A stretch of DNA of 63,525 nucleotides, filler included, from Folioceros fuciformis (Eukaryota), in the NCBI GenBank assembly GCA_049999805.1. It is 6 parts of 6 records of this genome, joined end to end, with 100 filler letters (N's around TTAATTAATTAA, not from the genome) between each part and the next. Parts side by side here need not be neighbours in the genome. Positions count along the whole stretch, not along the records: positions 15,509 to 26,546 come from JBNGIO010005610.1; 5 more parts are not named here. One strand, given 5' to 3'. The notes beneath the pieces are model-generated. The model was not told the origin of the DNA. It did no database searches and worked only from the letters and a program-made list of their open reading frames with translations. Numbering within the stretch: position 1 is the first letter of the stretch; every line of letters starts with the position of its first letter. This document shows, piece by piece, positions 424 through 63,525 of this stretch. The translations under genes were made by a program, and so were the position numbers.

Positions 424-3400
424 ATGGCAGCTCACTTCCTGCTGCTCTTGCTGGTGCTGCCCTTAGTGTCCGTCTCTGCTGCCGAATTATGCACTCCACA
501 AGATGCTGCCTACCAGACTGCTGCGGGTCCCGTTCCTGGCATGCTCAATGTCCACTTGGTTCCTCACACCCACGACGATGTGGGCTGGCTCAAGACCGTA
601 GACCAGTACTACGTCGGCTCCAATAACAGCATTCAGGTACTGCGCATTTTGCATTGAAACAATTTGCTTCGCATGCTTGCCTCCCTTTCTTGCATGCTGT
701 CTCGGGGTCCATTTTCTCCGTGTCCTCCCTTATTAGTTCGATGGCGGCTGGCAGGTGGCAGCAGTGCAGTACATTTTGGATTCTGTTGTCTCCTCGCTCC
801 TGGAGGACCGGAATCGCAAATTTGTCTATGTCGAACAGGCGTGTGTTCTCACTCACAGATGATTGTATCGGGCGGAAGTTGGAAGCTGGGATTGATAGCC
901 TACTGTAGCTCACTGCACGACCTCGTTTGGACAGGCCTTTTTCCAAAGGTGGTGGCGGGTGCAGTCTAAGGCCAAGCAGGAAATTGTCAGAAAGCTGGTG
1001 GACGATGGGCAGCTGGAGTTCATGTACTTTGCGCTTCCCACCTTTCTGATTCTGGTGCAAAATTTCGGAGATGGATTAGGGCCATCAAGGATCTCATGTG
1101 CTCTGCTGATCTTGTGTCAGCAATGGAGCATGGTGCATGCATGATGAGGCGACGACGCACTACATTGACATGATTGATCAGACTGCTCTTGGCCACCGAT
1201 TCATCAAACAGCAGTTCAACAAGGTGCCAAGGATTGGCTGGCAAATTGATCCATTTGGCCATTCTTCGGTCCAAGCGTATCTGCTGGGAGCCGAGGTGAG
1301 TTTCAGCAAGAGATGTCGCAGATACGCTGAGAAGCTCACGTCAGGCTGGTTGACTGGCGATCCTCTCTTCAAATTCGTTGGTGTGCTCATGAGACCTGAT
1401 TGCAGTAATATGTGGATATGTCGGTTGAAAACATTATCCTGTAAAAAACGATGGATGCAGCTGGGCTTTGACGCGGTTTTCTTCGCTCGAGGAGATTACC
1501 AAGATGTGGCCAAAAGGCGCAGAGATCGGTCCATGGAATTCATTTGGCGTGCTTCCGAGTCTCTGGGGGAATCTTCTGAGGTCTAGTTCTGAGCCACAAA
1601 CCACAAGAGTGCCCATTGTAGTTGACCTTTAATCAGGAATTGCATTCAGATCTTCGGGGGAGTTCTTGCACATCACTATGACCCCCCAAACGAGTTCCGG
1701 TACGACATCCACAATACAGAGCCCCCAATCCAGGTCTGATTTCGCTACAAGTTGGTCTGCATTTTCACAAACCTTCTCTGCTAGGCTTTAACTGTGATGC
1801 ATGATGTTTTTGCAGGATGATCCTCTCCTCTTTGACTACAATGTTCCAGATCGAGTGGATCTTTTTGTGAAATATGCTCAAGATCAGGCAGGTTCTCGCT
1901 CTCATGTATAGTTGCAACTGGGGAATTGGGTATGTCTTTTTCTGTCCTCACGGTCATTCTTGGTCTTGCTTAAATTGTTACCAATATCCGATGCTGTCCA
2001 TCAGGCTGCAGAGTTCCGGACAGAGCACATAATGTGGACGATGGGAGAAGATTTTGCTTATGAAAATGCCAACACTTGGTTCAAGCAAATGGACAAGCTC
2101 ATACATTACGTTAATAAGGCAATTGCTTGCAGGCCAAAACATCGTCGTCTATCCAGCATACTGTCGGACCTCTAGCTCTTAGTAACAAGGGCGACGTATC
2201 TCATTCGTGTTTGCTGTTTGCTGTGATGGCTTACTTCTTGGGCGGGACAGGATGGCCGTGTCAATGCCTTCTACTCAACTCCCTCTGTCTATCTTGATGC
2301 TAAGTATGCAGCCAATGAGACCTGGCCCTTGAAATCTGGTGATTTCTTCCCGTACGTAACTTACTTACCCGTGGGCTGGTTCCAATACTGTCGCTGCTTG
2401 AAATCGTTGCGGCACTTAAACGCTGAACTCTGCAGGTATGCAGACTCTGCAGCCAGCTACTGGACAGGGTACTTCTCAAGTCGGCCTGGATTAAAGGGAT
2501 ATGTCCGCAAACTTAGTGGCTATCTCCTAGTAAGTCGAGTAGATCTTTCTGAATCTGGGAAAGGATTCCTAAAATTTTTCCACTGACCAGTTTCCTGAGA
2601 TAGTTCGTGTTCCCTACTCAATTGCCTGATAGGCAGCCAGGCAACTTGAGTTCTTGTTGGGGAAAAGTGCGGTAAGATCGAGCACAGATTCACTGGAGGA
2701 AGCCCTGGCTATTTTACAACATCACGATGGAGTTAGCGGTACTGAGAAACAGCATGTAGCTGATGATTATGCTGAACGTCTAGCAATTGGTGCCGCTGAG
2801 GTGAGCACACTGTTTCAGTTCGATGGTTTTGTACTGTCTTGCTGGCTCAACGTCATGCATTGCTTTCTTTCATAGAATGTACCTTGAACATGATATAATC
2901 TGGGGATTCCTTCTATCTGCTGTGGGACCTGCCATTCACGTACTTGTAGAAAAGCAGTTCAGTTTTGACGTATCCCAATTTTTTGGAGTGTTAACAGTCT
3001 GCAGATATTATAAGTGCTGCTTTGACCTACTTGCTGCAAGGCAACGCTCCTAGGGCTGCAGTTTCACTGAGGAATGAGGTCTCAGAGGCTTTTTCTTTGC
3101 ACCGTCGTGGTCTGGAAGGAAGTCAAAGACATACCAGTGGTAAATTGAAGCTAGAACAGGTTAGGTCTTCGACCAGAAATTAGTTACGTCTTCGACCAGA
3201 AATTAGTTCCTTTCAAGTAGTGCATTGAACTCTGCCTGTTCTGTGTAGTGTCCTTTTTTGAACGTGAGCTACTGCCCGCCATCTCAGAGAGATTTTGGTG
3301 ATGGAAAAGTTCTGGTAATTCATAACCCTCTCTCCTAAAAAACTATGAACAGCATTCTGGATGCGTTACGACTGTAAACTAGGTGGGCCTTATTACGAAC

Positions 3401-15408: not shown

Positions 15409-15508
15409 NNNNNNNNNNNNNNNNNNNNNNNNNNNNNNNNNNNNNNNNNNNNTTAATTAATTAANNNNNNNNNNNNNNNNNNNNNNNNNNNNNNNNNNNN
15501 NNNNNNNN
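15409..15508. other. Artificial assembly linker N44-TTAATTAATTAA-N44
   Basis: Identical 100-bp structure occurs five times; the 12-mer gives stops in all six frames. Confidence 0.97.
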
Positions 15509-15599
15509 CAGCACACTTATCTCTCGTCTTTGCCTTTCAATCTAGCTTGCACCTTACATGTCTGTGCTTCCCAGTCCCCACTACAAGGCAAGAAGAGCT

Positions 15600-18040
15600 T
15601 CCAGCCATCGCTTGCCGGCAGGTTGCGGGGCCTTGGGCCAACGCGTTGCATCCTGCCGCACCTCACGGAAGCTTCAAGTTCAGTATTTGCACTTGAGGAA
15701 TGGTACTGTGGGAGTGAGTGCCCTCGCCAAAGGCTTTTGCGGCAGGGAACCTGGACTTGCGGGAGAATGAAGGTGGGAGTTGCTGCAGCACCTGGCCAGC
15801 ATTCTGGCGTCTGCTCCCGAATTCAAGAATCTGCCACAGCATGACAGCAACATGGATGTGGCCGGAGCGCATGGATTGGGATGCTCTTCCGCTCTGTTCC
15901 ACGCTCCGCAAGTTTAAGCGGTGTTCGAACACGGCGAGCGCCTAGCCGGACAGCATTCCTTGGGAATATTCAAGGATGGATTTGTTGCTACAACTTTGCT
16001 GCATGGAACCTTGAACGACATCCTCGACCACACGCAAATGCAGGGCATTCGTGCTGAATACCTGGTATTATTGATGAAGAGACTAAACTTGTGCTACGAA
16101 GATCATGCCAATCGAAGCCCAGAATTCTTCGTTCCCTTCACCTTGGATGACGCTGAAGGTAAAGCTCTTCAAGGGGAACGACAGCTGGATTGGAAGGGTG
16201 GTGCGGCGTCCAAGTACAATTACGTGGGCAGGCGGCTACAATTCCGAGATGAAACAAAGACATTTCTCGGTCCAGGCTGCTCAAGATTCCAGATACGTTG
16301 CCGTCTGAGCTCTCTTTTGTTAGTCATATAACCTCTCTTGGGTTTTATGACGTGGCCATTGCTGTGTTGTGTTGTGACTCGAGTTCTTGTAGGGCGGAGA
16401 TGTGGAACATGGATGGCAGCCTTCCAACAGAAGGACCCATTCGTCCTATAGCCTGTCTTGCACTGCCACCGCTCCAATCGGAAACCTGAACCCTCTACTG
16501 ACGGCTAATATGAGTTCATGACCGGGGCAATGCCAATGGCATCATATCATGCTCAAATGAGGAAGTGCAGAAGGAATTTCTTCTACGCCCTACCATGTCC
16601 AGCAGACAATCTCAGGACGAAAGGTTCCAAACAGGCTGACGGTGGAGAGGACGAAAGGTTCCAAACAGGTTGAAAGTGGAGAGGACTAGAGCTTATTCAC
16701 ATCAGGACTCTTTCTACCTGGAACATTCGGCGGACGGGGTCCACAAATTGAGGGTTTGTCTTCCGACAATGTGGAGAATGAGACTGTTTTTCCTCTCCTT
16801 GTTTGCTCCTTGTTTGGCACACACTGAATAGCATAAGTGTTCATGCCCCCATATCTGGGGTCACCAAGCTGCAGTTGCGTATCTGGAACAGCGAGGAGCC
16901 AGGCCTGGCCGACGCGCTGGCCGGAATGTTGCGCACCATTGATTGTATCACGGAGCTTAGGATCGGCTGTTTTGTTGTCAAGTTCGGCCTAGACACCTGG
17001 CGCCACAACTCCACCCGCTCTCATCTTATGTTGTGGAACTACGACGGTGACGAGTCGTTAAGTCAACTTTCGATGTCGTTTCTGGAATGCAAATCGGTAC
17101 GCATCCTGAGTTTGGAATGGATAAACTGGCCCTCTTCCCTAACACCGTTGGTGCAGTCTTTGGAGAAAAATACACCTTTGAATGAGCTCCGCTTTGTGTA
17201 TTGCGTGGCACTCGACGATGAGGGACTTTTCTCCCTTGGGCAGGCATGGTATATATTTTCGAGGTACGTACAATCTGGGATTTGAATCAACCCAGACGGG
17301 CAGTCTCATTCAGAGGGAAAAGGTCCAAAGGAAGGGATGACGATGAATGGGCTGGGAGCCTAGCTGAGCTGCGCTGAGCTGAGCAGAACTGAGGTGGTGG
17401 GATCCTACAGTCCATAGACCCACCTTCCATGTGAAGGAAGGCATCTCTCCTGCGTTGGTCTGGAAGGGTGGTACAGCGCTCAAGTACACGTACTTAGGGA
17501 GGCGGCTACTATGCCGAGAGACTGGACGGGTGGTACAGTGCGCAAGTACAACTACTTAGAGAGGTGGCTACAATGCCGAGATAAACGAACACGTTTGTCG
17601 TCCTGGCTTCTTTCCAAGATTCCAGGTACGTTACCTTGTGAGGTCTGTGACATTTCGTTAGTGATATATGCTCTCTTTGGCTTTCATGACATGGCCAATG
17701 GTTGTGCGTTGCAGGTCAAGTTACGACAGATCTTGTTTGATGGACCCTAGGGTATGCACTGTCATCAGTATAGCATTGCACGCAACTTGATCAAATTTAA
17801 CTAGTATGTTATGGACGTATTTTTGGAGAGCAGTGGGGATATTGGGGAGGAGACCGGGGAAATTGGTGATCGTGTTGACATTTTGATGAGGTCACTCAAG
17901 AGCAAAGACAAAACGATCGAATTTCTCCAGCAGAGTTTGGTTGCGGAGCTGAGAGCATTTTGTGCTTCTCCTGAAGGTAGTCCTGGAGTTAAACTAGTAG
18001 AAGGGATCATCAGGACTGAGTGTGTGGAGAACCTCAGAGA
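15600..18040 (+). pseudogene. Scrambled fragments of TORNADO1-like ROCO (LRR-ROC-COR) genes
   Basis: COR-like segment LVLLMKRLNLCYED..FFVPFTLDD..YVGRRLQFRDETKTFLGPG (15921-16300). A paralogous segment reads PGFFPRFQ, intron, VKLRQ (17460-17750), followed by VDILMRS..LRAFCASPEGSPGVKLVEGIIRTECVENL. LRR-like pieces at 15600-15850 and 16803-17240. Stops, frameshifts and local duplications; no ROC GTPase piece seen. Confidence 0.72.
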
Positions 18041-18106
18041 AGGAACCATCGTATCCAAAGTCAGTCACAGGGACCGCCTCTACTGGAGTCAGGGAAGGAA
18101 CCGTCA

Positions 18107-18778
18107 TATCCAAACGAAAGGGAGAAAGCAGGTCACGGGCGAGGTCTTGCAATGATAGTCAGTATAGAAAAAGGCAGAGATGGAGGACAGCTAGACAGAG
18201 GGCGACCCGACGTTCTTCTCCGTGGTCTGCCCTTGAAGTTTGAGATGGCCTGTGTGGTGGACGATCTTAAGGATGCGAAATCAACGTTGGAGCACGTTGT
18301 CAGGCATCCTGACTTCGATAAGGACGATTGCTTTCTGTTTTACGTGAATGCCCATGGTGAGACTGAAGAAGATGGTAGAGAGTATGTTTGCCTAGGTGAA
18401 GCAGACAAGGCGGAGAAGCTTTATGTTGAAGAAGTTAGTTTGAAGCCCATCGCTGAATGCGGGAATTTGGCAAACAATCCTAAGGTGGTTGTCATAAATG
18501 TTTGTCGACGCACTGGCAGTCTTGCCAAAAGCGTGAAAGCGCAGCGTTCAGGCACCGCCAGCCTTGCCACTAGCAGCAAAGCCGTGGGCTCAGACGTTGA
18601 GGAAAGCCAGGGTCCCAGCAAGAGAATTCGACCCCTGTATTATGCGAGCAACTTTGTCACCGTGTACTCCACCAGTCTTGGAGACGAATCTTTGAGAGAT
18701 GTCAAGAAAGGCCCAAACTTCATCATAGCTTTCATGAACTTCATCATAGGTTTTGTTTTTGTATGTTTGCTTAGGTGA
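18107..18778 (+). pseudogene. Caspase-like peptidase C14A domain (p20, linker, most of p10), 3' end rearranged
   Basis: Within ORF 18020-18778: YP..GRGLAMIVS, RDGGQLD, DCFLFYVNAHG (His codon 18353), CGNLANNPKVVVINVCR (Cys codon 18503), a Ser/Ala-rich linker, then SNFVTVYSTSLGDESLRDVKKGPNFIIAF. The 3' end is broken by a copy of 18382-18420 at 18761-18799. Confidence 0.8.
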
Positions 18779-19619
18779 AGCAGACAACGCCGAGAAGCTG
18801 CGGCGGAGTGCGGGAAGCCGCTGCGGGTGGGATCATTCTGTACCTCGTTGCCCGTGGCTGAGGCCACCACGTGATCTCATCGTCACTTGCTTAACAAAAA
18901 GAGATATCAGTGATGGTCACGGAGATCACCCCTCATGAAGTTTGGATGAGGTCTTCAAGAGTTCTGACCGTTAGGAACTCTTTTTTTTTTATCGAACATG
19001 GCCCACTGCTGGAGAAGTGTCGGATCGATCATGGTGCATGCTAGTCCTCGGGACTGGAAATTCAATGCCAGGACTACAACAGAAGGGAATAGTAGGATGA
19101 GGTTGATTGTGCGAAGCCATGATGCAGACCAGATTTTGTCCCCGCGGCCCGGTGACGGAAATGCGTCAGGTGCATTTCAAGCCTGGCGAGCTTGCCAGTG
19201 CCACACAAGTAAGGCAGTGGAAAGCGTGCGCATCTGCCTGGTTTGAAGAACTGCCTGGTGTCGCAGCCCTTGTGTTGCTTGTTCATGGTTTGATCTTTCG
19301 GCTTGCTTTCAGGTAGACCAAGGGCATGTCAGGCAGTGTGGAACAATTTCATTGCGGACAGCACTACTGGCAAGGTATGATGCTCTGGTGGCTGAGGATT
19401 AGCTGTTGAATTCGAGAGCACCCAGGCACGGACTGACTCGCACTTAGTGCACTGCAAAACGAGGAGAGCTGCTTGTTTTGAATTCTGGTCGAATCAGGTG
19501 CAGTGCAGATAAGCTGCCCTCAACCGGTCATTCAGCCAGGGACTCTACCCTCAATCGGAGGAAAGAGTCCAGGGACGGCGGAAAGCTGAAGGAACGCGAG
19601 CGAGCGTTGTAGATGTAAC

Positions 19620-21366
19620 GATGTCCATGGATGCAGTGACCTTTCCAACGATGGACTGGCTGGTGACAGGGAAATTTGTGGCATGGAATGCACTGGTTCC
19701 TGGGAATGCAACGGAGGGGCTCGACTGTTCTGTATGGACGTTTGTTCTGTCTAGACAGAATGGATCAGGAGGGCCTGATTTTGGCGGACTATGGCACTGT
19801 TTGTGTCCCTGCTGCAGGCATGTGCAAGTTTGGGCATACCAGTAAAGGTCACTGGAGAGTAGCTTCATGCGGAGATAAGGGAAAGAGGGTTTGACGGGGA
19901 TCTATTCTTGGGCAATAGTTTAGTCAACATGTATGCAAAGAATGGCAGCTTGAAAGACTTGAAGAGAGTGTTTGACGCATCCGAAAGGAAAGATGTGATG
20001 ATTTGGACCACTCTACTCGCAGGATATTCCCAGCCGGGCATGGGCCAGGAAGCCCTTGCTCTTTACGGAGCAATGGAAGAGGAAGGCATTGTTGCACCTG
20101 ATGCTGTGACATTTGTGTGCCCACTGCACGCATGTGCAAGTATGGGATCCCCAGCTTTGGAGATGGGGAATCAGCTTCATGTGCAAATTACGGAACAAGG
20201 GTACCAAGCTGATGTATCTGTAGCCAACAGTTTGGTGAACATGTATGCAAAGTGCGGCAGTCTGGAGGATGCCCAGGAAGTGTTTGATGGACTTGGTCAC
20301 AAAGATGTGGTGACATGGACTGCTCTGATTTCAGGATACGCACAGGAGGGCATGGGCAAGGAAGCCCTTCAAGTGTACGGTGCCATGGAAGAAGAGGGCA
20401 TAGCTGTGCCAAATTCTGTGACACTGACGTGCCTCCTGCAGGCCTGTGCGTGTGTGGGGGCCTTGGCTTTGGAGATGGGGAAGCAGCTGCACACCCAAGA
20501 ACAAGGGCTTGAAGCTGATGTGAACGTAGCCATCAGTTTGGTGAAGAATGTACTCAAAGTGTGGTAGCCTAGATGATGCGCAGAGGGTGTTTGGCAGATT
20601 AGATCGGAAAGATGTAGTGACGTGGACAGTTCTCATTGCAGGATATTCACGGCAAGGAATGGGCGTCAAGGCCCTTAGCGTTTACCGTGCTATGCAAGAG
20701 GATGGGGTAGCTGTGCCTGATTGTGTCACATTAGTGTGCTTCCTGCAGGCGTGTGCAAATGTGGCAGCTTTGCATCTGGGAAGGCAGCTACCTGTGCGGA
20801 TCAAACAGCAAGGATTTGAAGTTGATGTAATTGTCGCTGGCAGTTTGATTAACATGTATGCAAAGTGGGGAAGCATGGTTGAAGCACGGCAGGTGTTCGA
20901 TTCATTGTCTGACAAAACCATCGTTGCCTGGAACGGACTGATTGCAGATTACAGCCACCAAGGAGATAGTGAAGAGGTTTTGGACTTGCTTCGCAGAATG
21001 GGAGTGGACGGTATACTGCCAGACATCATAACGTTCCTTGGTGTGCTGACAGTCTGTGGTCATACAGGTCAAGTGAACAAGGGGTGGGAGTCCTTCGAAA
21101 GCATGAGCAGCCACAGTGGCATCACCCCAACGGTGGAGCACTACGCATGCATGGTAGGTCTCCTGGGCCGTGCACGCCGACTGGACGAGGCACAAGGCCT
21201 GGTCAGGAGCATACATGTACCACCTGATGCCACAGTTTGGCACACTCTGTTGGGGGCCGCTCAAAAGTGGAGGAACGTGGAGGTTGGACGCCATGCTTTC
21301 AAGCAAGCAGTGAAGCTAGACAAGAAAGATGCAGCAGCCTACGTGTTGATGTCCAACATGCCCTAA
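19620..21366 (+). pseudogene. PLS-class PPR protein with E domain (organellar RNA-editing-factor type), frameshifted and truncated
   Basis: Repeating P-L-S motifs (NSLVNMYAKCGSLEDAQEVFD, VVTWTALISGYAQEG, VTLTCLLQACA), S2 TPTVEHYACMVGLLGRA, E1 VWHTLLGA and E2 AAYVLMSN. Frameshift near 20547, stop at 21364 inside E2, decayed 5' part. Intronless. Confidence 0.92.
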
Positions 21367-23502
21367 ACACCAGAGCCGAAATTCGGAGCAACCACAGGCC
21401 TTGCAGAGGAAGAGGGTGAGAATTAAGGCATGAAGCAGACGGGACAAAGGTGGTGGACAGACATGGACGGCCAGTGGGCTGGTGCACAGTTTTTGTTGTT
21501 GGGGATATTGTTCAAAAAGTGTGAAGTGGGAACCTTGTGATGAAAAGAAGGACAAGGTGGTCACTTCAAATCTTCCAAGATGGAAATGGGGCTTGCATGA
21601 GATTTGAGGGTTGAATGTGAAGTACCAATAATGTACGGATTGTGGTCTTGTACTTTGTGAACAAGTAACTATCGAACCCGGAGAAGAGCGGAGTCACGTC
21701 TCTTCGAACTACTGAGGCCGAATGACTGGGAGGACTAGACCAGACCACATGGACATAATTGTCAGAGATGCTCGCCGGGTCCATCTCTTCAAGGCTGGGT
21801 TTCCTGCTGGGATTGTCCTCAGCAGTCGTACCAATGTCGGTCTTCTCCACATTGTCTGAAGGATTTTAGCACAACTGTGCAGCTGGAGGCTGGAGCCTGA
21901 TTATATCTGAACATGAAGAATCTGGTGGATTTTGCGTTTGGCGAAGATTAAGGAGTTTGTTTATGGAGGGAGCGCAACAGTCTTGAGGAGATTCGGGAGA
22001 CTGGAATTTTGAGAATATTCGGAATGTAGTCTGAATATGTTGTCTAAACCTCTTCCGAGATGCCGTACATGTCTCAAATTCGAATGTGATGCTTAGTAGA
22101 TCGACTCTGTGGCCGCGCTGGTCTCCCGGGCATCTTGGCCACGTCGTGGTGTGAGACGTGATATCACGGTTTGAAACCTGCTCATCCGGTCGTCCATAGC
22201 CCTATACCTGGACGGCCTCCCCCCTCAGTAGCTGCAGCTGCTCGTTGTAGCCGAAATGAGTCCTTCCCGTTGCGTACCCGCCAATCGTCTGCACGGAATC
22301 CGGAATGCGTGTCTGGCTGATTATGAACTCTTTGGCCCGTCTTCTGGTCTTGTTCCTCCCGCCTCTCTTCTCCTGGCCTGGGAGGCGCAGGAGGAGAGAG
22401 GTATGGAACTAGGCACCGCAATGGGATCCTGGCAGCGCAGGCAGCCACTACAACGTAGTGTGAAAAGGCAGTGTTGGTGGAAGCGCGCACCGTGGAAGGC
22501 ATCACGGGATGCTTTAAATTTGTTGTAGCATCGCAACTCCCAATCCCCGTGAAAACTGTCTGAAACATCTCGCTCCAGTAACATTGAATCAAGTTCTATG
22601 GCAGTCCAATAAACAAGCAACACAACACTTGCTGCTTGCAGAATCACAAGGAAGTGATTTAAACTGATACCTGGTGGAATTGGATTCCAACACACAAGCA
22701 AGCCAACCAATGCTTCTTCCAAATCATGGCAAACTGCTGTCTTGTAGTGTCGGATTCCAACAACAGAAGCATGGCTACTCCGTCTTCAAAGGGCACAAGG
22801 AAGAAACTGCGTCCCGGACTGAAATTCACCACACAAGTAGCCACCGACGATTCCAAAGCACAAGGAAGAAACTCATGGCGTTCTCCGGATCCGGGACGTG
22901 GACAGGGTGAACAACGACACCATGGAGACGGGTCATGGAGTTTTGCGAGTATCACGTTACGGCAGCGCTTCGTCGGAAGGACGAACTCAGACAGTGGTTT
23001 CGTATGGAAGCACCAGGGCTTTGGGGCCATCGTTTGTGAAATTGACTTTGGCATAGATGAACCTGTGGTCGACGTGCCTAATCCTTGCCTCCTCCATCAC
23101 CTGCATAGTCCAGTGCCCTTCACAACCTTCTACAGTGCGGGGCTTTTTAATCTTCTTCGCCTCATACACCTAGCTAAGGATGCGCAGCATCACCTATGGA
23201 TAATTTGGCCTAATCATATGGTCGGTGGCAATGGAATCCCATCAGTTGGAATTTCTAAGGGGAGAAACCAATCTATCTTCCCGTCTGCTTGTCAGCCATG
23301 ATCTGCGCATCTGCGTAATTGCCTGGAAGAAGAGGTCATTTGGAGGACCGCAGCCGGTCGTGGCGGCCACCTCCATCATATGGTGTCCGAGTGTGAGTCC
23401 GTCCATTTTTCTTGCAGTGAGTTCTCTGTTTCCTAGCATTCTTGAACAATTGCTTGCTCGAGGGCTGCAATAGCCTGGTGTAAATCTTCCATCTCGGTGT
23501 CC

Positions 23503-23873
23503 ATAATACAGTAAGCTTATTCTTATGTAGAGATGTCTACAATACAGTAAGCTTGATTCTTGATGTAGAGATCTCCACAATACAGTACGCTTGATTCTTG
23601 ATGGAGAGATCTCCACAATACAATAAGCTTGATTCTTGATATAGAGATCTCCACAATACAATAAGCTTGATTCTTGATGTAGAGAAGCTTGATTCTTGAT
23701 GTAGAGATCTTCACAATACTGATTCTTGATATAGAGATCTCCCAATATAATAAGCTTATTCTTGATGTAGAGATCGTCACAATACAATAAGCTTGAAATA
23801 CAGTAAGCTTGATTCCTGATGTAGAGATCTCCACAATACAATAAGCTTGATTCTTGATGTAGAGATCTCCACA
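23503..23873. repeat. 38-bp minisatellite (AAGCTTGATTCTTGATGTAGAGATCTCCACAATACAAT), about 10 degenerate copies
   Basis: Head-to-tail units with internal deletions and no unique spacers. Confidence 0.92.
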
Positions 23874-23936
23874 CCCTCATTATCTTTGAACAATTCAACT
23901 TTGCTTGCCTCCAACAAGTATCAAGAGCTCAAGCTC

Positions 23937-24026
23937 ATATTCAGGTAATATCATCTGCAAGGTACTATATTCAGGTAATATCATCTGCAAGGTACTATAT
24001 TCAGGTAATATCATCTGCAAGGTACT
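23937..24026. repeat. Perfect 30-bp tandem triplication (ATATTCAGGTAATATCATCTGCAAGGTACT)
   Basis: Directly visible; another two-copy tandem of about 43 bp lies at 24452-24533. Confidence 0.95.
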
Positions 24027-24675
24027 AAGTATGCACTGATGCTCAACAGCAGTAATTTATGATTATCCCCAACCCAAACTCCAAACTTTCACATCCTACA
24101 TAGCAGGACAACTCTATCATAGAGAGAGGGGATTGTGGAGATTATTATGTTCACCACAAAAAGTATAAGTTTAAGTAATCTCAAGTTATATACAAATAAA
24201 TCGAGATTGACAAGGTATGAGGTTGTTGGGAAGCCAACCTTTATTTCTTGATTCCTTGATAGCTTTATGAAATGGATGTGTTACTATATATGTATTGGTA
24301 AATTTAAATATGGAGACTTACTATCTTTTAGAAGATTATAAATGTATGCTTAGATTACTAGTTTAATGTATACAAGTGTTCATTGAGACTCCATACGTTG
24401 CCCATAGATCGTAGTTAGTGTGATCTTTTGTGCCTTAAGCTTGCCAACGTCATTGAGGCCAAGCATGACATCATTCCTCTCTTCTAGTCCCCATATTGAG
24501 GCCAAGCATGACATCATTCCTCTCTTCTAGTCCCAGGTGCTCACCTACATGTGTACCATAGCCGAGCTATCTAAGTACAAACTGAAGGCCGACCTTCGTA
24601 TGAACCGCAGTTTAGAAGGACATATAGCCTGTTTCTCATTCCAATACAGAGTCTGACTATTTTTTTTCCTTTGGC

Positions 24676-24870
24676 AGGCATCATATATTTTCGAGTTATG
24701 TACATACAATGTGGGATTTTGAAGCAACCCGGAAGGACAGTCCCATTCAGAGGAAAAATGTCCAAAGGACAGGATGACAATGAATGGGCTAGGAGCCTAG
24801 CTGAGCTGAGCTGGTGGGATTCGACGCTCCACAAACCTAACTTCCATGTGAAGGAAGGCATCTCTCCTGC
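24676..24870 (+). repeat. Diverged direct duplicate of 17241-17452
   Basis: Shared CAGGCAT..ATATTTTCGAG, CATTCAGAGG, TGAATGGGCT.GGAGCCTAGCTGAGCTG and CTTCCATGTGAAGGAAGGCATCTCTCCTGC; both copies end at the same base. Confidence 0.88.
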
Positions 24871-26546: not shown

Positions 26547-26646
26547 NNNNNNNNNNNNNNNNNNNNNNNNNNNNNNNNNNNNNNNNNNNNTTAATTAATT
26601 AANNNNNNNNNNNNNNNNNNNNNNNNNNNNNNNNNNNNNNNNNNNN
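26547..26646. other. Artificial assembly linker
   Basis: N44-TTAATTAATTAA-N44. Confidence 0.97.
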
Positions 26647-33900: not shown

Positions 33901-34052
33901 AGCATGAAGAAGCTAAGGCGTTGGCATAAGTGATTATTACATTGAGGTTTTAAAAAAGCCTAAAACAGAGAGCTAGTTGTAACCGTTTTAACCTAACTTA
34001 AATACGAACCGTTATTGGCTTAGTGTCTGAATAGGTAATTGCCAATCCTACA
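27946..34052 (-). mobile_element. Full-length but degenerate Ty1/copia LTR retrotransposon
   Basis: Direct LTRs at 27946-28156 and 33850-34052. PBS TGGTATCAGAGC (tRNA-iMet) at 33838-33849 and PPT TGAGGGGGCG at 28157-28166, both on the minus strand. Gag (RFNGSDYPIW, CHWCRIPGHFESEC), protease WFLDSGATHH, integrase (LRSDNAKEY, QNSYAER), RT (HQMDVKTAFLNG, LYVDD) and RNase H (YADAHWA, SSTEAEY). Split by stops and frameshifts. Confidence 0.96.
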
Positions 34053-34054
34053 AA

Positions 34055-35160
34055 ATGAAGCCTGGCGAAGGAGAGGACAGCTACGTGAAGAACTCGTCAA
34101 TGCAGTCGCACTTTATTCAGGTGGTGGAAGCTCAGCTGTGGCACGGGATTCGATCTGCTTCCCGCGTTCCAGAGATGGGCAATTCCTGGAACGCCCTATG
34201 CGTAGCAGACCTAGGATGTGCCACGGGTAACAACACCATCAGAACCGTGGACAAGCTCCTGGAAAGTCTGGCAGCGCTGTGGCAGTCCAAGAGTGGCCGG
34301 CTGGACCTGCACCTGCAGCGGCGGCCCTTCCCCAAGGACGTTCAGGTTTTCTTCACCGACCTACCGTCCAACGATTTCAACACTCGCTTCTGCAGCTTGT
34401 CCCGTCACCAAGCTGGATCCAGGCGCTATTTCGCAGTCGGTGTCCCTGGATCCTTCTATGGCCCGCTGTTTCCCGCCACAAGCATCCACACTTTCACCTG
34501 CTTCACCGCGCTGCATTGGCTGTCCCGAGTACCTCCCGAGGTCCTGGACGAGAATTCCCCTACATTCAACTTTGACAGGGTGCACGTCCGTGGCGCCAAT
34601 CCCGCCATGGAGCGGGCCTTTGCTGGCCAGAGCCACAACGACCTGACGGAATTCTTCACCAACCGAGCCAATGAGCTGGTACCTAGAGGGTTCGCTGCCC
34701 TGGCCATACTTGCCAAGCCAGACGAGCAGCCGCACCGAGCAGCACTCTTGGACATGTTATTCGACACCTTCCACGAGCTATCTGTCCAGGGTGTTATCCC
34801 ACGGGATCTCATCGAGACCTTTAACATCCCCCTCTACATCCCGAGTATCGCACAAGTGAGGCGGGCTGTGGAGCGGGCAGGCCTCTTCGACATCCACTTC
34901 CTGCAATCCTGCGGTGACATCTCCTACTACCCTGCAGCCAAATGTGCGGAATACTGAGCGGATGTCAAAAGTTTTGCGAGGGAAAGTGCTTTGATGTGGA
35001 AGGGCGTCTTCCTCACAATCATACTGGAGCACTTCGGTCAGGAGTTGAACAACGTGCTGTTCAACCAGTTCGAGCATCATGTGCAGACACTTCATCTTCA
35101 GTCTAGCGATCCAAATGTGGACGATTACTTCACCATCAATCTCTTCTGACCAGGAAGTAG
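34055..35160 (+). pseudogene. Intronless SABATH-family SAM-dependent carboxyl methyltransferase with a premature stop
   Basis: MKPGEGEDSYVKNS, VADLGCATGNNT, FFTDLPSNDFNT, GVPGSFYGPLFP, ALHWLSRVP, ELVPRG, FNIPLYIPS. In-frame TGA at 34955; homology continues (IILEHFGQE..LFNQF) to a shifted LTRK-stop ending at 35160. Confidence 0.9.
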
Positions 35161-43459: not shown

Positions 43460-43559
43460 NNNNNNNNNNNNNNNNNNNNNNNNNNNNNNNNNNNNNNNNN
43501 NNNTTAATTAATTAANNNNNNNNNNNNNNNNNNNNNNNNNNNNNNNNNNNNNNNNNNNN
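43460..43559. other. Artificial assembly linker
   Basis: N44-TTAATTAATTAA-N44. Confidence 0.97.
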
Positions 43560-52889: not shown

Positions 52890-52989
52890 NNNNNNNNNNN
52901 NNNNNNNNNNNNNNNNNNNNNNNNNNNNNNNNNTTAATTAATTAANNNNNNNNNNNNNNNNNNNNNNNNNNNNNNNNNNNNNNNNNNNN
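52890..52989. other. Artificial assembly linker
   Basis: N44-TTAATTAATTAA-N44. Confidence 0.97.
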
Positions 52990-56938: not shown

Positions 56939-57038
56939 NNNNNNNNNNNNNNNNNNNNNNNNNNNNNNNNNNNNNNNNNNNNTTAATTAATTAANNNNNN
57001 NNNNNNNNNNNNNNNNNNNNNNNNNNNNNNNNNNNNNN
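56939..57038. other. Artificial assembly linker
   Basis: N44-TTAATTAATTAA-N44. Confidence 0.97.
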
Positions 57039-58013: not shown

Positions 58014-61000
58014 CTACACTCCTAGGCTGGTCACACCTGCTGTGTCCGGTTGGCACTTGGGACAATACCAAAGTTGCTCCGGTACATGGGTAAGTGGTGG
58101 CTGTAAGCAGAAAAGGTGGAAACCCCCATTGCAGCCATCACAAAGTAACATGAGGTCAGCATCATCTGTGCGTTGACAAACCTGACAAGGATAGTCCGTT
58201 GGTGGAATCCAATCTGCTGTGACAATAGAAGGATCAAGATTGGGCAAGTGGCAAGGTGCGCAATTCTTGGTGTGGTCAGTGGTGATCCGACCATCTGAGC
58301 CTTGCAATACCAGGATGCCATTAGGCTTGACCTCCTGAATCCGCAACACATGCCGACTGCTGGAAGTGTCCAGGGTATCTGAGGTCTGCCTCTGCAGGTA
58401 AACAAAGTCTCCTACCTGGAACTTCCTGAGCTTGGGCCTAAAACTGCCTCCCCTAGTGTGTGCATAACGAAGGGTATCCCTATGCTGGGCAATGTGCAAG
58501 TTAGCCATTGCCATGGGCATGGCCTGTTTGAACAAGGCTGCCCTGTTACCTATCACACGTGCCCATGTAGCTGCATCATCCAGCTTGACAACTTCTAGCA
58601 TTTGTTTGGCTATAGAACTAGGTGGAATTGGTTCTCTGCCAAACAAGAGGAAGTAAGGGGAAAAATGGGCAAGGGCAGCATGCTTGCTCATGCGGTAACC
58701 CATTGCAATATATGGAAGCAAGAGATCCCAATCTGTTTTGGGTTCTCGGAGACACAGCTTGCGAAGCCCCTTCTTCATAGTCTGGACCATGCGCTCGGCT
58801 AAGCCATCAGCCTGCGGGTGGTCCCGGCTAGTTCTCCTGTGGTCAATAAGGGCTGCATCCATTAGATCCTGGAATTCTCCTCGAAACTCAGAACCCTGAT
58901 CTGTGAGACACTCTGCGCAGCCACCAAACCTACTGAGCACACATTGTAGGAAGGCTTGTGAGGTACTCCTAGAGGTCTTGTCTGGCAGGGCCACTACCTC
59001 CACCCACTTGCTGAAGTGTTCCATCATGATCATCGCATACAGGTTGCCTCGTGGAGACTGCGGGAGCTCACCCATCAGGTCGCATGACCATCTAAAGAAT
59101 AAACCCATGATGGGCAAAGGGTGCAGCTCTGGGTGCTGCATGGTGAAGGAAGCCTTGACACGGTCGCATTGCTCGCAACAGGCTACTCGTTCCTTCACTT
59201 GTTCATGCATTCGATTCCAGTAGAAATAGGGAGTCAACAGGCTGTAGGTGCGTTTGACCCCAAAATGACCCATGTCATCATGCACCCTTTTGATGAGGGC
59301 AGCACGATCTGCTGGTGGGGGTACCAATCGCTCCACTCCTTGAGCCTGTTGACGGATGAGATGTCCGTCCCGCCAACAATACTTGGTAGCCCGTTGGTGA
59401 ACTCGTTCCCTTGTGGCCGTGGTCCAAGTGGGGTCCTCTCTACCTGTCTGCACATACTGAAGGGTAGCTGGATCCTCCCAAATATCCTTGGAGGATTGCT
59501 GAGCTGCACCTACAGGCACCTGTCCCAAGCAAGTCATGGCCACCAGAGCCGATACGGCAAGCATTGTGCTGTACTCTTCATCTTGGCGAGCTCCAGTGGT
59601 ATCCACACAACTGCTGTCAGGATTTCGTGACAAGGTATCAGCATTCTGGTGCTTCACTCCTGGCCGATGTTCAACCTGGAATTCGTAATCTTGAAGGATC
59701 ATGGCCCAACGTGCGAGTTTGCCACTGAGCTTGGTGTTGGTCATCAGCCACTTGAGTGGTTGATGGTCTGTCACGAGTGTGAACTTCTGACCATATAAAT
59801 ATGGTCTGAAGTGGCACACTGCCCACACAGCAGCGAGGCATTCACCCTCGTAGCTGCTATAGTTGGCTTCAGCTCGATTGTTGCTACGCGAGGCGTAAGC
59901 AACCACACGCTCACAACCTGCTTCATCCTGTTGAGCCAACACAGCCCCTAGCCCTAGACTACTCCAATCTGTGTGAACTACAAAGGGCTTGTTAAAATTG
60001 GGTCTGGCCAACATTGGTGCAACTGTTAGCTCCAGCTTTAAGGTGTCAAAAGCTTGTTGTGCCTGCTCTGCCCATGTCCACTCTACATCCTTGCGCAGCA
60101 GATCATTAAGAGGCTTGGCAATCCTGCTGAAATTGGGTATGTATACTCGATAGTAATTGCATAACCCTAGAAATGAACGCAGGGCTGATACGGTGGTCGG
60201 TTCCTTAACCTGCATAATTGCCTGAACCTTGGCAGCATGTGGGGTGACACCATTGGGGACAATTCTGTGACCCAAATACGCCACAGTGCTCATGCCAAAC
60301 TCACACTTGGCTGGGTGGCACGTGAGTTGTGCCTTCCGTAATCTTATAAACAGGTCTTCCAGGTGTACCAAATGATCCTTGAAGTCCATGCTGTGGACTA
60401 GCACATCATCAATGTAGCACATGAGATAGCCGGCTCCAGCTAGTACTATGTCCATGATGCGCTGAAAGGTCACTGGCGCATTCTTGAATCCAAAGGGCAT
60501 CACTAGCCATTCCCATAGCTGTTGAGAACCATGGAAGGCTGTCTTCTTGATATCTTCAGCTGCCACTGGGACCTGGTTAAACCCTTGTCGCAGGTCCAGC
60601 GTGGAGAAGAACATAGACTGTCCAAGACGGCCAAAGATCTCCTCTGGTGTTGGCATTGGGTACCGATCTTGGGCAGTTACTGCATTGATGGGCCTATAGT
60701 CGCCACACATCCTCTTCTCAGTCCACAAACCCTGACTGTCCTTTTTGGGTGGCATCACGGTGGCAGCAGCGTAGTCACTGTTAGAGGGACGTATTAGGTT
60801 CGCCTCATACAGCTCCTTGCATCTTGCATCCACCATGTCCCATTCCGTCTTGCTCAGCCTATACCGTCGCCTGTATACAGGCTCTTGGGTGGTAAGGTTG
60901 ATGCGAAAGGTTGTGACATTGCACCTCTTGAGCTCATGCATGGAAAAGGCAAAACAGTCCCTGTACCTAAGCAGCAAGTTATGAATGCGGTCCTGTTGCT

Positions 61001-63518: not shown

Positions 63519-63525
63519 CCATGTG

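What the first reader, a model, noticed from the sequence alone, without database searches (positions are those of the whole stretch)
18107..18778. Animal-type (C14A) caspase domain with both S1 arginines embedded in plant DNA
Seen: the motifs occur in caspase order and spacing. YP..RGLAMIVS matches YxMxxxPRGxALII. RDGGQLD matches RxGxxxD, the caspase-1 Arg179 position (codon 18176). DCFLFYVNAHG matches DCFVCxILSHG (His, 18353). CGNLANNPKVVVINVCR matches CPSLAGKPKxFxIQACR (Cys, 18503, 50 residues after the His). A low-complexity linker containing VGSD follows. NFVTVYSTSLGDESLRDVKKGPNFI matches the p10 DFLxxYSTxPGxxSWRxxxxGSWFI, with the Arg341 position at 18695. Established: land plants are considered to lack true caspases and to have only Arg/Lys-specific metacaspases, which have an acidic S1 pocket and a D[AS]CHS motif. 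Inference: two S1 arginines predict cleavage after Asp, so this may be a genuine caspase family in a non-seed plant, perhaps horizontally acquired. The QACR Gln is Asn here. This copy has a rearranged 3' end and may be dead. It shares a contig with a plant PPR gene, which argues against simple contamination.
Basis: partly seen in the sequence, partly recalled or inferred. Interest (0 to 1): 0.93.

Follow-up and report, generated by a model that had tools for sequence, protein, structure and literature searches.

The report
Dead caspase-type gene copy in plant DNA
A plant genome stretch carries a broken copy of a protease domain that looks like the animal cell-death enzymes called caspases, and it points to a small, apparently undescribed gene family of that type.

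Summary
An exhaustive search found only 19 relatives in 1.84 billion proteins. Fifteen form one family with the window copy (13-row clade, 95/95). A profile of that family hits caspase-6 and caspase-3 at E about 6e-39 over p20 and p10. The model's fold ranks caspases (Z 15-18) above MALT1 (14.4) and metacaspases (9-12). So the domain is caspase-type, not a metacaspase.

The flanks are plant nuclear DNA: PLS/E-class PPR, SABATH methyltransferase, GH38 mannosidase, copia/gypsy/LINE.

This copy is dead. About 50 C-terminal residues, including the predicted dimer strand, are missing from the whole window. About 100 residues are deleted at 18036, with a frame change. The upstream DNA is a patchwork of duplicated fragments. 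Public reads of the same coded organism reproduce both junctions and show several paralogs.

Asp specificity, transfer origin and the relatives' taxa remain untested.

The parts
18020..18775 (+). Open frame of 252 codons holding the caspase-type domain: p20-like part about 18107-18514, low-complexity linker about 18515-18643, partial p10-like part about 18644-18751. In-frame Met only at residues 45, 76 and 239.
   Evidence: Pfam E 9.8e-12; pLDDT 78-90 for residues 31-160, under 50 for 176-208, about 83 for 211-240; Met positions.
18176..18178 (+). Arg53, aligned with the first S1 arginine of caspases (residue 64 of caspase-6 chain 4fxo_A).
   Evidence: Family alignments (10 of 11 other rows have R) and the profile alignment to caspase-6.
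18353..18355 (+). His112, the catalytic histidine (NAHGE here, SHGE in caspase-6).
18497..18505 (+). Asn160-Val-Cys162: the catalytic cysteine, with Asn where caspases have Gln. The next residues are Arg-Arg, where the family has Arg-Gly.
   Evidence: (family 'inaCrG' against caspase-6 IQACRG).
18695..18697 (+). Arg226, aligned with the p10 S1 arginine (residue 220 of 4fxo_A).
   Evidence: 10 of 11 other rows have R.
17805..18035 (+). Upstream module in a different reading frame, homologous to the region that precedes the caspase domain in relatives P0011, P0004 and P0015. Its domain identity is unresolved (possibly the end of a COR domain).
   Evidence: E 7e-16; E 6e-8.
18036..18037 (.). Breakpoint of an internal deletion of about 100 codons, with a change of frame. 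Other genomic copies run on differently from here.
   Evidence: Relatives have about 100 residues between the two modules and the window about 25. Loose ends behind 18036 appear in X1, X2 and X3, and X1 contig record 5 bridges the window's own junction.
18716..18799 (+). Broken 3' end: a 13-nt direct repeat (18716-18728, 18737-18749), the stop at 18776-18778, and a 39-nt copy of 18382-18420 at 18761-18799.
   Evidence: The junction is bridged by X3 contig record 20 (18702-18978, 6 mismatches, no gaps) and X2 record 13.
15918..16328 (+). Upstream ORF with a weak, sub-threshold COR-A match. It may be a remnant of a Roc-COR protein.
   Evidence: PF16095, E 0.0069, 16.7 bits against a 35.3-bit cut-off. 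PDB phmmer gave only chance hits.
16190..17581 (+). Patchwork of duplicated gene fragments. A 60-nt piece occurs at 16190, 17460 and 17522. 16188-16358 resembles 17520-17697. 17281-17453 recurs at 24718-24870.
19863..21363 (+). Neighbouring PLS-class PPR gene with an E motif, in two frames that overlap at about 20545-20564. It anchors the locus in plant nuclear DNA.

Best explanation
Positions 17805-18799 hold a pseudogene. It is a decayed copy of a member of a multi-copy plant gene family whose product ends in a caspase-type (MEROPS C14A-like) cysteine protease domain placed after a COR-like module.

Shown: the domain is caspase-type by sequence and by predicted fold. It keeps the His-Cys dyad and both arginines that line the S1 pocket in caspases. 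It lies in plant nuclear DNA. The copy has lost about 50 C-terminal residues, has an internal deletion with a frame change, and has no suitable start codon of its own.

Inferred: intact family members are proteases that cut after an acidic residue, most likely Asp. They become active when two domains pair through the last beta-strand, as animal caspases do. In the fused forms (COR-like module, or one to three alpha/beta-hydrolase modules, in front) the N-terminal part would bring domains together in response to a signal. That would make the caspase domain the executioner end of a one-polypeptide sensor/switch, by analogy with Roc-COR and NLR proteins that carry variable effector domains. The window copy itself can do none of this.
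For: Domain identity:
- Pfam Peptidase_C14, E 9.8e-12.
- A family profile (A2: 11 relatives plus the window, no animal sequences) hits caspase-6 at E 6.2e-39 and caspase-3 at 5e-38, aligned from the first strand to the C-terminal K-K-L-y-W/F motif. All 60 rows shown are chains named caspase, procaspase or apopain.
- In that alignment the family's conserved R, H, N, C and R fall on residues 64, 121, 161, 163 and 220 of chain 4fxo_A. I recall these as caspase-6's S1 Arg, catalytic His, Gln, catalytic Cys and S1 Arg.
- Fold: all 39 Foldseek rows listed are caspase entries, best E 1.7e-9. VIA-align gives caspase-9 Z 17.8 (rmsd 3.4, 182 aligned), 4jj7 17.4 and 4pry 17.1, against MALT1 14.4, AtMC4 12.2, AtMC9 11.6, Yca1 10.7 and TbMCA2 9.2.

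Family:
- 19 of 1,835,955,588 representatives reach E 1e-3.
- The window sits in a 13-row clade with 95/95 support.
- Nine relatives scanned show a complete Peptidase_C14 or nearly so; the fragment P0015 matches only profile positions 1-94. Two of the three hydrolase-fused forms also match alpha/beta-hydrolase families.
- The window keeps 29 of 44 columns that are at least 9/11 conserved, including every catalytic and pocket residue.

Plant context: PPR with E motif; Methyltransf_7, GH38, copia and LINE. GC and CpG of the ORF match its flanks.

Dead copy:
- Pfam coverage stops at 188 of 233 and family-HMM coverage at 220 of 294. No ORF of 12 residues or more anywhere in the window supplies the rest.
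- The upstream module is in another frame, and about 100 residues are missing between the two modules.
- The terminal branch is 2.45 against a median of 1.07.
- The upstream DNA is a mosaic of repeats.

Junctions and copy number: contigs from a second study of the same coded organism bridge the 3' junction. At 18392, nine distinct contigs in each of X1, X2 and X3 carry another base. Loose ends show copies that keep the deleted part.

Dimer: two copies of the intact relative P0007 score 0.69 against a best control of 0.01. That mark was reached by 21 of 30 proteins solved as pairs and 0 of 23 solved as single chains. The runs agree in at least 60% of contacts and the partner's pLDDT is at least 74. 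The interface uses residues 224-238 and 250-258, the part the window lacks. Caspase dimers are already solved, so this pass may come from memory and shows likeness only.
Against: - No enzymatic data exist, and the Gln of the caspase S1 pocket is Asn in the family. P1 preference is therefore a guess.
The annotated collection returned only two unnamed members, so 'plant family' rests on this one window plus reads of one coded organism.
- The AF2 alignment (A1) included two animal-type sequences, which may pull the model toward the caspase fold.
- The COR identity of the upstream module is weak: E 0.0069, below the cut-off. The module folded alone gave mean pLDDT 46, and the Atlas gave nothing. 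No Roc GTPase domain was found in the window.
- A GT..AG splice of 71 nt (18022-18092) would give an uninterrupted 298-codon frame from the ATG at 17811 to the stop at 18776-18778. Some truncated product is therefore not excluded.
- All laid runs are short contigs. None links the caspase domain to the PPR gene independently of the assembly.
Confidence: 0.78

Rival explanations
1. The locus is a live gene. A short spliced transcript (ATG 17811, 71-nt intron 18022-18092, stop 18776) would encode a 298-residue protein with a catalytic p20 and a truncated p10. It could act as a decoy or regulator of intact paralogs, much as catalytically impaired caspase-like proteins regulate caspases in animals.
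For: The hypothetical splice has GT..AG ends and gives an open frame of 298 codons with no internal stop. All catalytic and pocket residues are retained, and 29 of 44 conserved columns are kept.
Against: The putative intron is only 46% A+T, and no read evidence for the splice was seen. About 100 residues present in the relatives are missing. The predicted dimer helix and strand are absent. The terminal branch is long. The surrounding DNA is duplicated scrap.
Confidence: 0.1
2. The multi-copy signal arises because a transposable element captured a fragment of a caspase-family gene and spread it (Pack-MULE or Helitron style). On this view the window shows a TE passenger, not a decayed resident gene.
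For: Summed contig depth is raised across about 15.9-19.5 kb, non-coding flanks included, relative to 15509-15908. The tool warns that this depth is not a copy number. The locus is a mosaic of gene pieces, and one piece recurs 7.4 kb away. The window is rich in TEs.
Against: No terminal inverted repeats, LTRs or other TE ends were found around the locus: one weak 26-nt inverted pair only. No transposase-like ORF lies next to it on the + strand.
Confidence: 0.12
3. The caspase stretch is not plant DNA. It would be contamination or a chimeric join from an animal or protist in the sample.
For: The nearest sequences outside the family are animal-type caspases. Caspases are stated to be restricted to animals (abstract of 10.1101/2023.04.28.538660, seen in the listing).
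Against: Plant genes and plant-type TEs lie on both sides in the same window. GC and CpG of the ORF match the flanks. Two studies of the same coded organism, dated 2017 and 2025, both hold the stretch and several variants of it, and they bridge its junctions. Identity to any animal caspase is only about 15-24%, so this is not recent animal DNA.
Confidence: 0.03
4. The domain is a divergent metacaspase, paracaspase or orthocaspase, the C14 members expected outside animals. The caspase-like motifs would be convergent.
For: Pfam has a single model for all C14 members. MALT1 still scores Z 14.4 and a bacterial homologue (3bij) 12.5. NCBIfam gives a weak sub-threshold hit to a bacterial caspase model, E 5.5e-4 and 19.5 bits against a 140-bit cut-off.
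Against: The family profile aligns end to end with caspase-6 and caspase-3 at E about 1e-38 to 1e-39. No metacaspase or MALT1 chain appears among the window's 7 PDB hits or among the 60 profile rows shown. Metacaspases score Z 9.2-12.2 at 9-12% identity, caspases 15-18 at 17-23%. The motifs are AHG, NACRG and S-x-R, not the D[AS]CHSG motif I recall for metacaspases.
Confidence: 0.03

Closest known systems
Animal effector and initiator caspases (MEROPS C14A; caspase-3, -6, -8, -9, CED-3, Dronc)
   Same: Same order of elements: p20, linker, p10. His-Cys dyad. Both S1 arginines aligned. A p10 motif S-T-x-x-G-x-x-S-x-R-x-x-x-x-G-x-x-F. A C-terminal K-x-L-Y-W/F strand in intact relatives. Best sequence matches (E about 6e-39) and best fold matches (Z 15-18). 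A predicted symmetric dimer through the last strand.
   Different: Asn replaces the pocket Gln (NACRG rather than QACRG). The histidine motif is AHG, not SHG. No CARD, DED or death-fold prodomain was found in the relatives scanned. Instead some carry a COR-like module or up to three alpha/beta-hydrolase modules. Identity to animal caspases is only about 15-24%. The context is a plant genome. The window copy lacks the last helix and strand.
Plant, fungal and protist metacaspases (C14B; AtMC4, AtMC9, Yca1, TbMCA2)
   Same: Same clan CD caspase-hemoglobinase fold and the same Pfam family. They are the C14 members expected in plants.
   Different: Lower fold scores (Z 9.2-12.2, 9-12% identity). 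Absent from the PDB sequence rows shown. As I recall, metacaspases have an acidic S1 pocket and a D[AS]CHSG motif, whereas this family has two arginines and NACRG.
Paracaspase MALT1
   Same: Caspase-like fold, Z 14.4 with 175 residues aligned. Like this family, it is fused to non-death-fold modules.
   Different: Ranks below eight caspase-family entries. Arg-specific, as I recall. Not among the sequence rows shown.
Roc-COR (ROCO / AP-GTPase) proteins with variable C-terminal effector domains
   Same: The window has a weak COR-A-like ORF upstream, and the caspase domain follows a conserved module shared with relatives. Passages of PMC8195603 describe LRR-Roc-COR proteins whose C-terminal position holds a kinase in animal DAPK and at least 24 different effector domains in bacteria.
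   Different: No Roc GTPase or LRR domain was detected in the window. The COR match is below the cut-off, and the module could not be identified by fold or by Atlas. This is a lead, not a membership.
Bryophyte hydrolase-NLRs (Hyd-NLR)
   Same: Relatives P0005 and P0020 combine alpha/beta-hydrolase modules with a predicted executioner domain. Passages in 10.1101/2022.10.19.512840 and PMC12512272 describe alpha/beta-hydrolase N-terminal domains in NLRs of non-flowering plants.
   Different: No NB-ARC or LRR was found in these relatives. Homology between their hydrolase modules and those of Hyd-NLRs was not tested. Those papers' main texts mention no caspase domain in plant NLRs, and their supplements could not be read.

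Membership tests
Caspase (MEROPS C14A) | Catalytic His-Cys dyad in caspase order, within SHG and QACxG-type motifs (motif labels recalled) | tested here: met
   His112 (NAHGE) and Cys162 (NVCRR) align with the His and Cys of caspase-6 and of 10 of 11 family rows. The motifs are variants: AHG and N-x-C-R.
Caspase (MEROPS C14A) | Basic S1 pocket: two arginines (caspase-1 Arg179 and Arg341 positions, numbering recalled) | tested here: met
   Arg53 and Arg226 align with residues 64 and 220 of caspase-6 chain 4fxo_A through the family profile.
Caspase (MEROPS C14A) | Gln two residues before the catalytic Cys (third S1 residue) | tested here: not met
   Asn in the window and in 9 of 11 other family rows. 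The profile's 'n' aligns with the Gln of IQACRG. Asn also occurs in the uncharacterised caspase-like sequences P0019, L001, L002 and L003.
Caspase (MEROPS C14A) | Complete p10 with the last helix and beta-strand that form the dimer interface | tested here: not met
   The window covers Pfam positions 1-188 of 233 and family-HMM positions 5-220 of 294, and the rest is nowhere in the window. Intact relatives do have it.
Caspase (MEROPS C14A) | Closer to solved caspases than to other clan CD members, by sequence | tested here: met
   Family profile: caspase-6 E 6.2e-39, and all 60 rows shown are caspase chains. Window alone: 6 of 7 hits at E up to 10 are caspases and none is a metacaspase or MALT1. 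Only the best 60 of 241 rows are visible.
Caspase (MEROPS C14A) | Closer to solved caspases than to other clan CD members, by fold | tested here: met
   Caspases Z 15.0-17.8 and cFLIP 14.5, against MALT1 14.4, legumain 12.6 and metacaspases 9.2-12.2. All 39 Foldseek rows listed are caspase entries. Caveat: the model's alignment held two animal-type rows.
Caspase (MEROPS C14A) | Cleavage after Asp | not testable with these tools
   Needs enzyme assays on an intact paralog.
Metacaspase (C14B) | Acidic S1 pocket and D[AS]CHSG-type Cys motif (recalled) | tested here: not met
   The window has Arg53 and Arg226 and the motif NVCRR. The family consensus is INACRG.
Paracaspase (MALT1-like) | Best structural and sequence match to MALT1-type domains | tested here: not met
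   MALT1 ranks ninth (Z 14.4), below eight caspase-family entries at Z 14.5-17.8. It is not among the sequence rows shown. Rows within 1 Z unit count as tied, so its placing against cFLIP is not decisive.
ROCO (Roc-COR) proteins | Roc GTPase followed by a COR domain | tested here: inconclusive
   Only a sub-threshold COR-A hit: E 0.0069, 16.7 bits against a 35.3-bit cut-off. No Roc hit in the five upstream ORFs among the ten scanned. PDB phmmer gave chance hits. The shared upstream module folded at pLDDT 46. Upstream of 15509 lie a masked stretch and a minus-strand ORF whose translation resembles a retrotransposon (not scanned).

The most novel reading that the evidence does not exclude
A land-plant lineage carries an expanded, so far unreported family of true caspases: C14A-type, dimer-activated and cutting after Asp. 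They are fused to COR-like or alpha/beta-hydrolase modules and act as the executioner end of cell-death or immune switches. If so, 'caspases are restricted to animals' is wrong, and some long-sought 'caspase-like activities' of plants could have a genetic basis in such lineages.
Probability: 0.35. Interest if true: 0.92.

Novelty: new variant of a known kind. Interest (0 to 1): 0.72.

Why it matters
Plant cell-death research has worked for more than twenty years on the premise that plants have metacaspases but no caspases. The abstracts of PMC2064784 and 10.1101/2023.04.28.538660, seen in the listings, state this.

A caspase-type domain with both S1 arginines, sitting in plant nuclear DNA and belonging to a family with intact, differently fused members, makes that premise testable. 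One can clone an intact paralog and ask whether it cuts after Asp.

The fusions to a COR-like module and to alpha/beta-hydrolase modules also suggest a new executioner domain for plant sensor/switch proteins.

The window copy itself is only a fossil. Its value is as a pointer to the family.

Tried and rejected
- **Whole genome:** none is held for this window, so no genome-wide paralog search was possible.
- **Cluster look-up for taxa and names of relatives:** switched off.
- **Word-index homolog searches:** none at near length with the ORF. The family profile found only P0003 and P0006, both unnamed. The 'longer' search found only a millipede gene model, P0021.
- **Translating long frames with stops for Pfam:** I used single ORFs instead.
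- **Sequencing runs:** no RNA holder is listed, so expression is untested. All laid runs are short contigs, so no piece spans from the caspase ORF to the PPR gene.
- **ESM Atlas:** the nearest clusters to P0004 are arthropod and chordate caspases at 0.87-0.89, under the 0.9 mark, so a lead only. Nothing was found for the N-terminal module of P0011.
- **N-terminal module folded alone (A3, four rows):** mean pLDDT 46. That is too poor for a fold search, so none was run.
- **PDB phmmer of the COR-A-like ORF:** chance-level hits only.
- **Donor scans:** viral contigs, 167 pattern matches and none a relative. Prokaryote genome contigs: the first try failed for lack of a conserved stretch, and a tighter alignment gave 152 pattern matches, none a relative. 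These patterns find close relatives only. The metagenome scan gave 3 loci of low GC (28-38%) that look like animal-type caspases at 24-27% identity, not members of the clade.
- **TE ends around the locus:** none found.
- **Possible fragment of a caspase C-terminal motif in frame 0 at about 18057-18092 (R-L-Y-W):** BLASTP E 0.75, and not detected by the family HMM at E up to 50. Rejected as unsupported.
- **Literature:** None listed a paper describing a caspase-type family in land plants. Subscription journals and supplements were not visible.
Full report
**1. The observation**

It lies in a stop-to-stop frame of 252 codons, 18020-18775. Counting from 18020 places Arg53 at 18176, His112 at 18353, Cys162 at 18503 and Arg226 at 18695, exactly as reported. 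Pfam Peptidase_C14 matches at E 9.8e-12 (45.5 bits, cut-off 21.4) over profile positions 1-188 of 233. That is far beyond chance.

The odd 3' end is also real. A 13-nt direct repeat lies at 18716-18728 and 18737-18749. A 39-nt copy of 18382-18420 follows at 18761-18799.

**2. Which kind of C14 domain**

Pfam has one model for caspases, metacaspases, paracaspases and orthocaspases, so I needed further tests.

- **Window alone against PDB sequences.** It gives seven hits at E up to 10. Five are caspase-6 chains (best E 0.0096), one is the insect caspase Dronc/Nc and one is noise. None is a metacaspase or MALT1.
- **Exhaustive phmmer.** Over 1,835,955,588 representatives it found 19 proteins at E 1e-3 or better, the best at 40% identity. 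Seventeen share a distinctive set of motifs: S-M-E, R-x-G-G-x-x-D-R, D-C-F-V-C-F-V-x-A-H-G, K-P-K-V-F-F-I-N-A-C-R-G, V-F-S-T-x-x-G-x-x-S-x-R-x-x-x-x-G-T-x-F, and a terminal K-L-Y-W. Of the other two, P0018 is a DED-plus-caspase protein. P0019 looks like an animal-type caspase by my reading.
- **Family profile against PDB.** The profile (A2) holds 11 relatives plus the window and no animal sequence. It hits caspase-6 at E 6.2e-39 (137 bits) and caspase-3 at 5e-38, aligned from the first strand to the last. All 60 rows shown, of 241 matched, are chains named caspase, procaspase or apopain.
- **Aligned residues.** In the printed alignment the family's conserved R, H, N, C and R fall on residues 64, 121, 161, 163 and 220 of chain 4fxo_A. 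I recall these as the S1 Arg, catalytic His, pocket Gln, catalytic Cys and second S1 Arg of caspase-6.

**3. Fold**

An AlphaFold2 model of the window ORF was made with alignment A1 (17 rows, two of them animal-type). Its mean pLDDT is 71.4. The core is confident (blocks 78-90 for residues 31-160, about 83 for 211-240) and the linker is disordered.

Foldseek against the PDB lists only caspase entries in all 39 rows shown, best E 1.7e-9. The independent VIA-align scan of 48,161 chains gives this ranking:

| Chain | Z |
|---|---|
| Caspase-9 (rmsd 3.4, 182 aligned) | 17.8 |
| 4jj7 | 17.4 |
| 4pry | 17.1 |
| Sf-caspase-1 | 16.2 |
| Dronc | 15.9 |
| Caspase-4 | 15.5 |
| CED-3 | 15.0 |
| cFLIP | 14.5 |
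| MALT1 | 14.4 |
| Legumain | 12.6 |
| AtMC4 (9% identity) | 12.2 |
| AtMC9 | 11.6 |
| Yca1 | 10.7 |
| TbMCA2 | 9.2 |

Sequence, motifs and fold agree: the domain is caspase-type. One defining residue differs. The Gln before the Cys is Asn, in the window and in 9 of 11 other family rows.

**4. The family**

Pfam scans of nine family relatives give a complete or nearly complete Peptidase_C14 in eight; the fragment P0015 matches only positions 1-94. The tenth protein scanned was the animal-type P0018. P0020 (1113 aa) and P0005 (807 aa) also match alpha/beta-hydrolase families, and P0020 has three such modules by the alignment. P0004, P0011 and P0015 carry an N-terminal module of no known family. 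P0002, P0007, P0008 and P0016 are short stand-alone forms.

I built an IQ-TREE tree (LG+C20, 20 rows, 276 columns). I left out the fragments P0009, P0014 and P0015, the p20-only locus L002 and the first domain of P0018. The tree puts the window in a 13-row clade with 95/95 support, together with all three architectural groups. P0006 and P0013 fall outside it, and the five animal-type rows served as outgroup. The tree has no metacaspase outgroup, because I had no way to obtain such sequences.

The family is rare in public data. The annotated collection returned only two unnamed members, and the Atlas holds no cluster of 50 or more members for it.

**5. Context**

The window is plant nuclear DNA.

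- A PLS-class PPR gene with an E motif lies 1.1 kb downstream.
- The window also has a SABATH-type Methyltransf_7 ORF (E 1.7e-61), GH38 alpha-mannosidase exons, and copia, gypsy and LINE elements.
- The caspase ORF's GC (0.491) and CpG ratio (0.72) match its flanks (0.51-0.53 and 0.66-0.70).

Three runs from two studies of one coded organism hold 34-40% of the sampled words of 17400-19400. When laid, all 30 bins of 15509-21500 have cover in X1-X3. A 277-nt contig of the second study spans 18702-18978 with 6 mismatches and no gap, so the broken 3' end is not an assembly artefact.

At single sites inside the ORF many distinct contigs carry another base: 9 contigs in each of X1, X2 and X3 at 18392, and 7-10 at 18478. 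The genome therefore holds several related copies.

**6. This copy is dead**

- **Truncated 3' end.** The domain stops at Pfam position 188 of 233 and family-HMM position 220 of 294. An hmmsearch with filters off, over every six-frame ORF of 12 residues or more in the window, finds no piece for the missing end. tblastn with all relatives hits only 17808-18757.
- **Frame break and internal deletion.** The module that precedes the caspase domain in P0011 and P0004 is present at 17805-18035 (E 7e-16 and 6e-8), but in another frame. The roughly 100 residues that separate the two modules in relatives are reduced to about 25. Contigs of all three runs have loose ends that leave the window sequence right behind 18036. 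Their consensus, by my own reading, translates to something like the part retained in P0011. One contig bridges the window's own junction.
- **No usable start.** The caspase frame has no Met before residue 45.
- **Patchwork upstream.** The DNA at 16190-17700 is a patchwork of repeated gene pieces, one of which recurs at 24718-24870.
- **Long branch.** The window's terminal branch is 2.45 against a median of 1.07.

Even so, 29 of 44 strongly conserved columns and every catalytic and pocket residue survive, so the decay is probably recent. A 71-nt GT..AG splice (18022-18092) would give an open 298-codon frame from the ATG at 17811. It is unsupported by any read and would still lack the C-terminal part.

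**7. How intact members probably work (inference)**

Two copies of the intact relative P0007 are predicted to pair. The score is 0.69 against a best control of 0.01. That mark was reached by 21 of 30 proteins solved as pairs and by 0 of 23 solved as single chains. The runs agree in at least 60% of contacts, and the partner's pLDDT is at least 74. The closest contact is residue 252 with residue 252, and the interface uses residues 224-238 and 250-258. This is the helix and last strand, as in caspase dimers, and it is exactly the part lost in the window. Caspase dimers are solved, so this pass shows likeness and may come from memory.

With two arginines in the S1 positions, cleavage after an acidic residue is the natural prediction. 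The Asn-for-Gln change leaves the exact preference open.

The fusions suggest that the caspase domain is the output of a larger switch. A weak COR-A match lies upstream in the window (E 0.0069, below the cut-off). Passages of PMC8195603 describe LRR-Roc-COR proteins whose C-terminal slot holds many different effector domains. I could not confirm a COR identity, and no Roc domain was seen.

**8. Origin**

Narrow pattern scans found no close relative in viral contigs or in one genome per prokaryote species. Three metagenome loci are low-GC, animal-like caspases at 24-27% identity. Nothing here points to a recent donor. Ancient transfer, or vertical descent with wide loss, cannot be told apart with these data.

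**9. Novelty**

None listed a report of a caspase-type family in land plants. Listing abstracts still state that caspases are restricted to animals (10.1101/2023.04.28.538660; PMC7889975).

Term searches in two surveys of NLR diversity in non-flowering plants and ferns found no caspase domain in the main text. Their supplements were closed.

The kind of protein is known. The setting (plant), the pocket variant and the fusion partners are new as far as I could see. The window's own copy is a fossil, and the finding's worth is the family it reveals.

Noticed in passing
window 20495-20546: The PPR gene changes frame near 20545-20564 in the window. A 288-nt contig found in each of X1, X2 and X3 (20301-20583, 4 other letters) lacks one base at 20546 and has 6 extra bases behind 20495. 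Removing that base would put the two PPR ORFs in one frame. The window's frameshift may therefore be an assembly error, or the contig may be a paralog or allele.
   Followed up: partly
window 34031-34954 (+): A 308-codon open frame matches SAM-dependent carboxyl methyltransferase (Methyltransf_7, E 1.7e-61), a SABATH-type gene.
   Followed up: partly
window 1110-2583 (+): Exons of a GH38 alpha-mannosidase: Glyco_hydro_38N at E 7e-27 and a weak middle-domain hit.
   Followed up: partly
window 23503-24027: A tandem array of a 38-nt unit (at least 8 copies, 23518-23888), followed by three exact copies of a 30-31-nt unit (23937-24027). A 40-nt exact pair lies at 24452-24534. Their nature is unknown.
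   Followed up: no
window 15409-15508, 26547-26646, 43460-43559, 52890-52989, 56939-57038: Five pairs of 44-nt N runs, each pair separated by 12 bases. They are masked stretches. The first lies just upstream of the caspase-family fragments and hides what joins them to the minus-strand retrotransposon-like ORF beside them (resemblance is my reading, not scanned).
   Followed up: no
window 58017-63524 (-): An open frame of 1836 codons runs off the window's end. It is probably a retrotransposon polyprotein. It was not scanned.
   Followed up: no
window 18039-18114 (+): Two 21-nt near-copies (GAAGGAACC.TC.TATCCAAA) lie 55 nt apart, just upstream of the caspase domain (read). Each encodes K-E-P-S-Y-P, but in different frames. 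This suggests a small duplication at the deletion junction.
   Followed up: partly
L001 959-1606, L002 467-1015, L003 1451-2260: Metagenome contigs of low GC (28-38%) encode caspase-like domains. They carry Asn instead of Gln before the catalytic Cys (NACQG, NMCRG, NACRG) and GSWY/GTWF p10 motifs. The Asn variant is therefore not unique to the window's family.
   Followed up: partly
P0013 residues about 260-433: This relative, which falls outside the 13-row clade, has a C-terminal extension with two Cys-rich repeats after its caspase domain. No Pfam family matched them.
   Followed up: no
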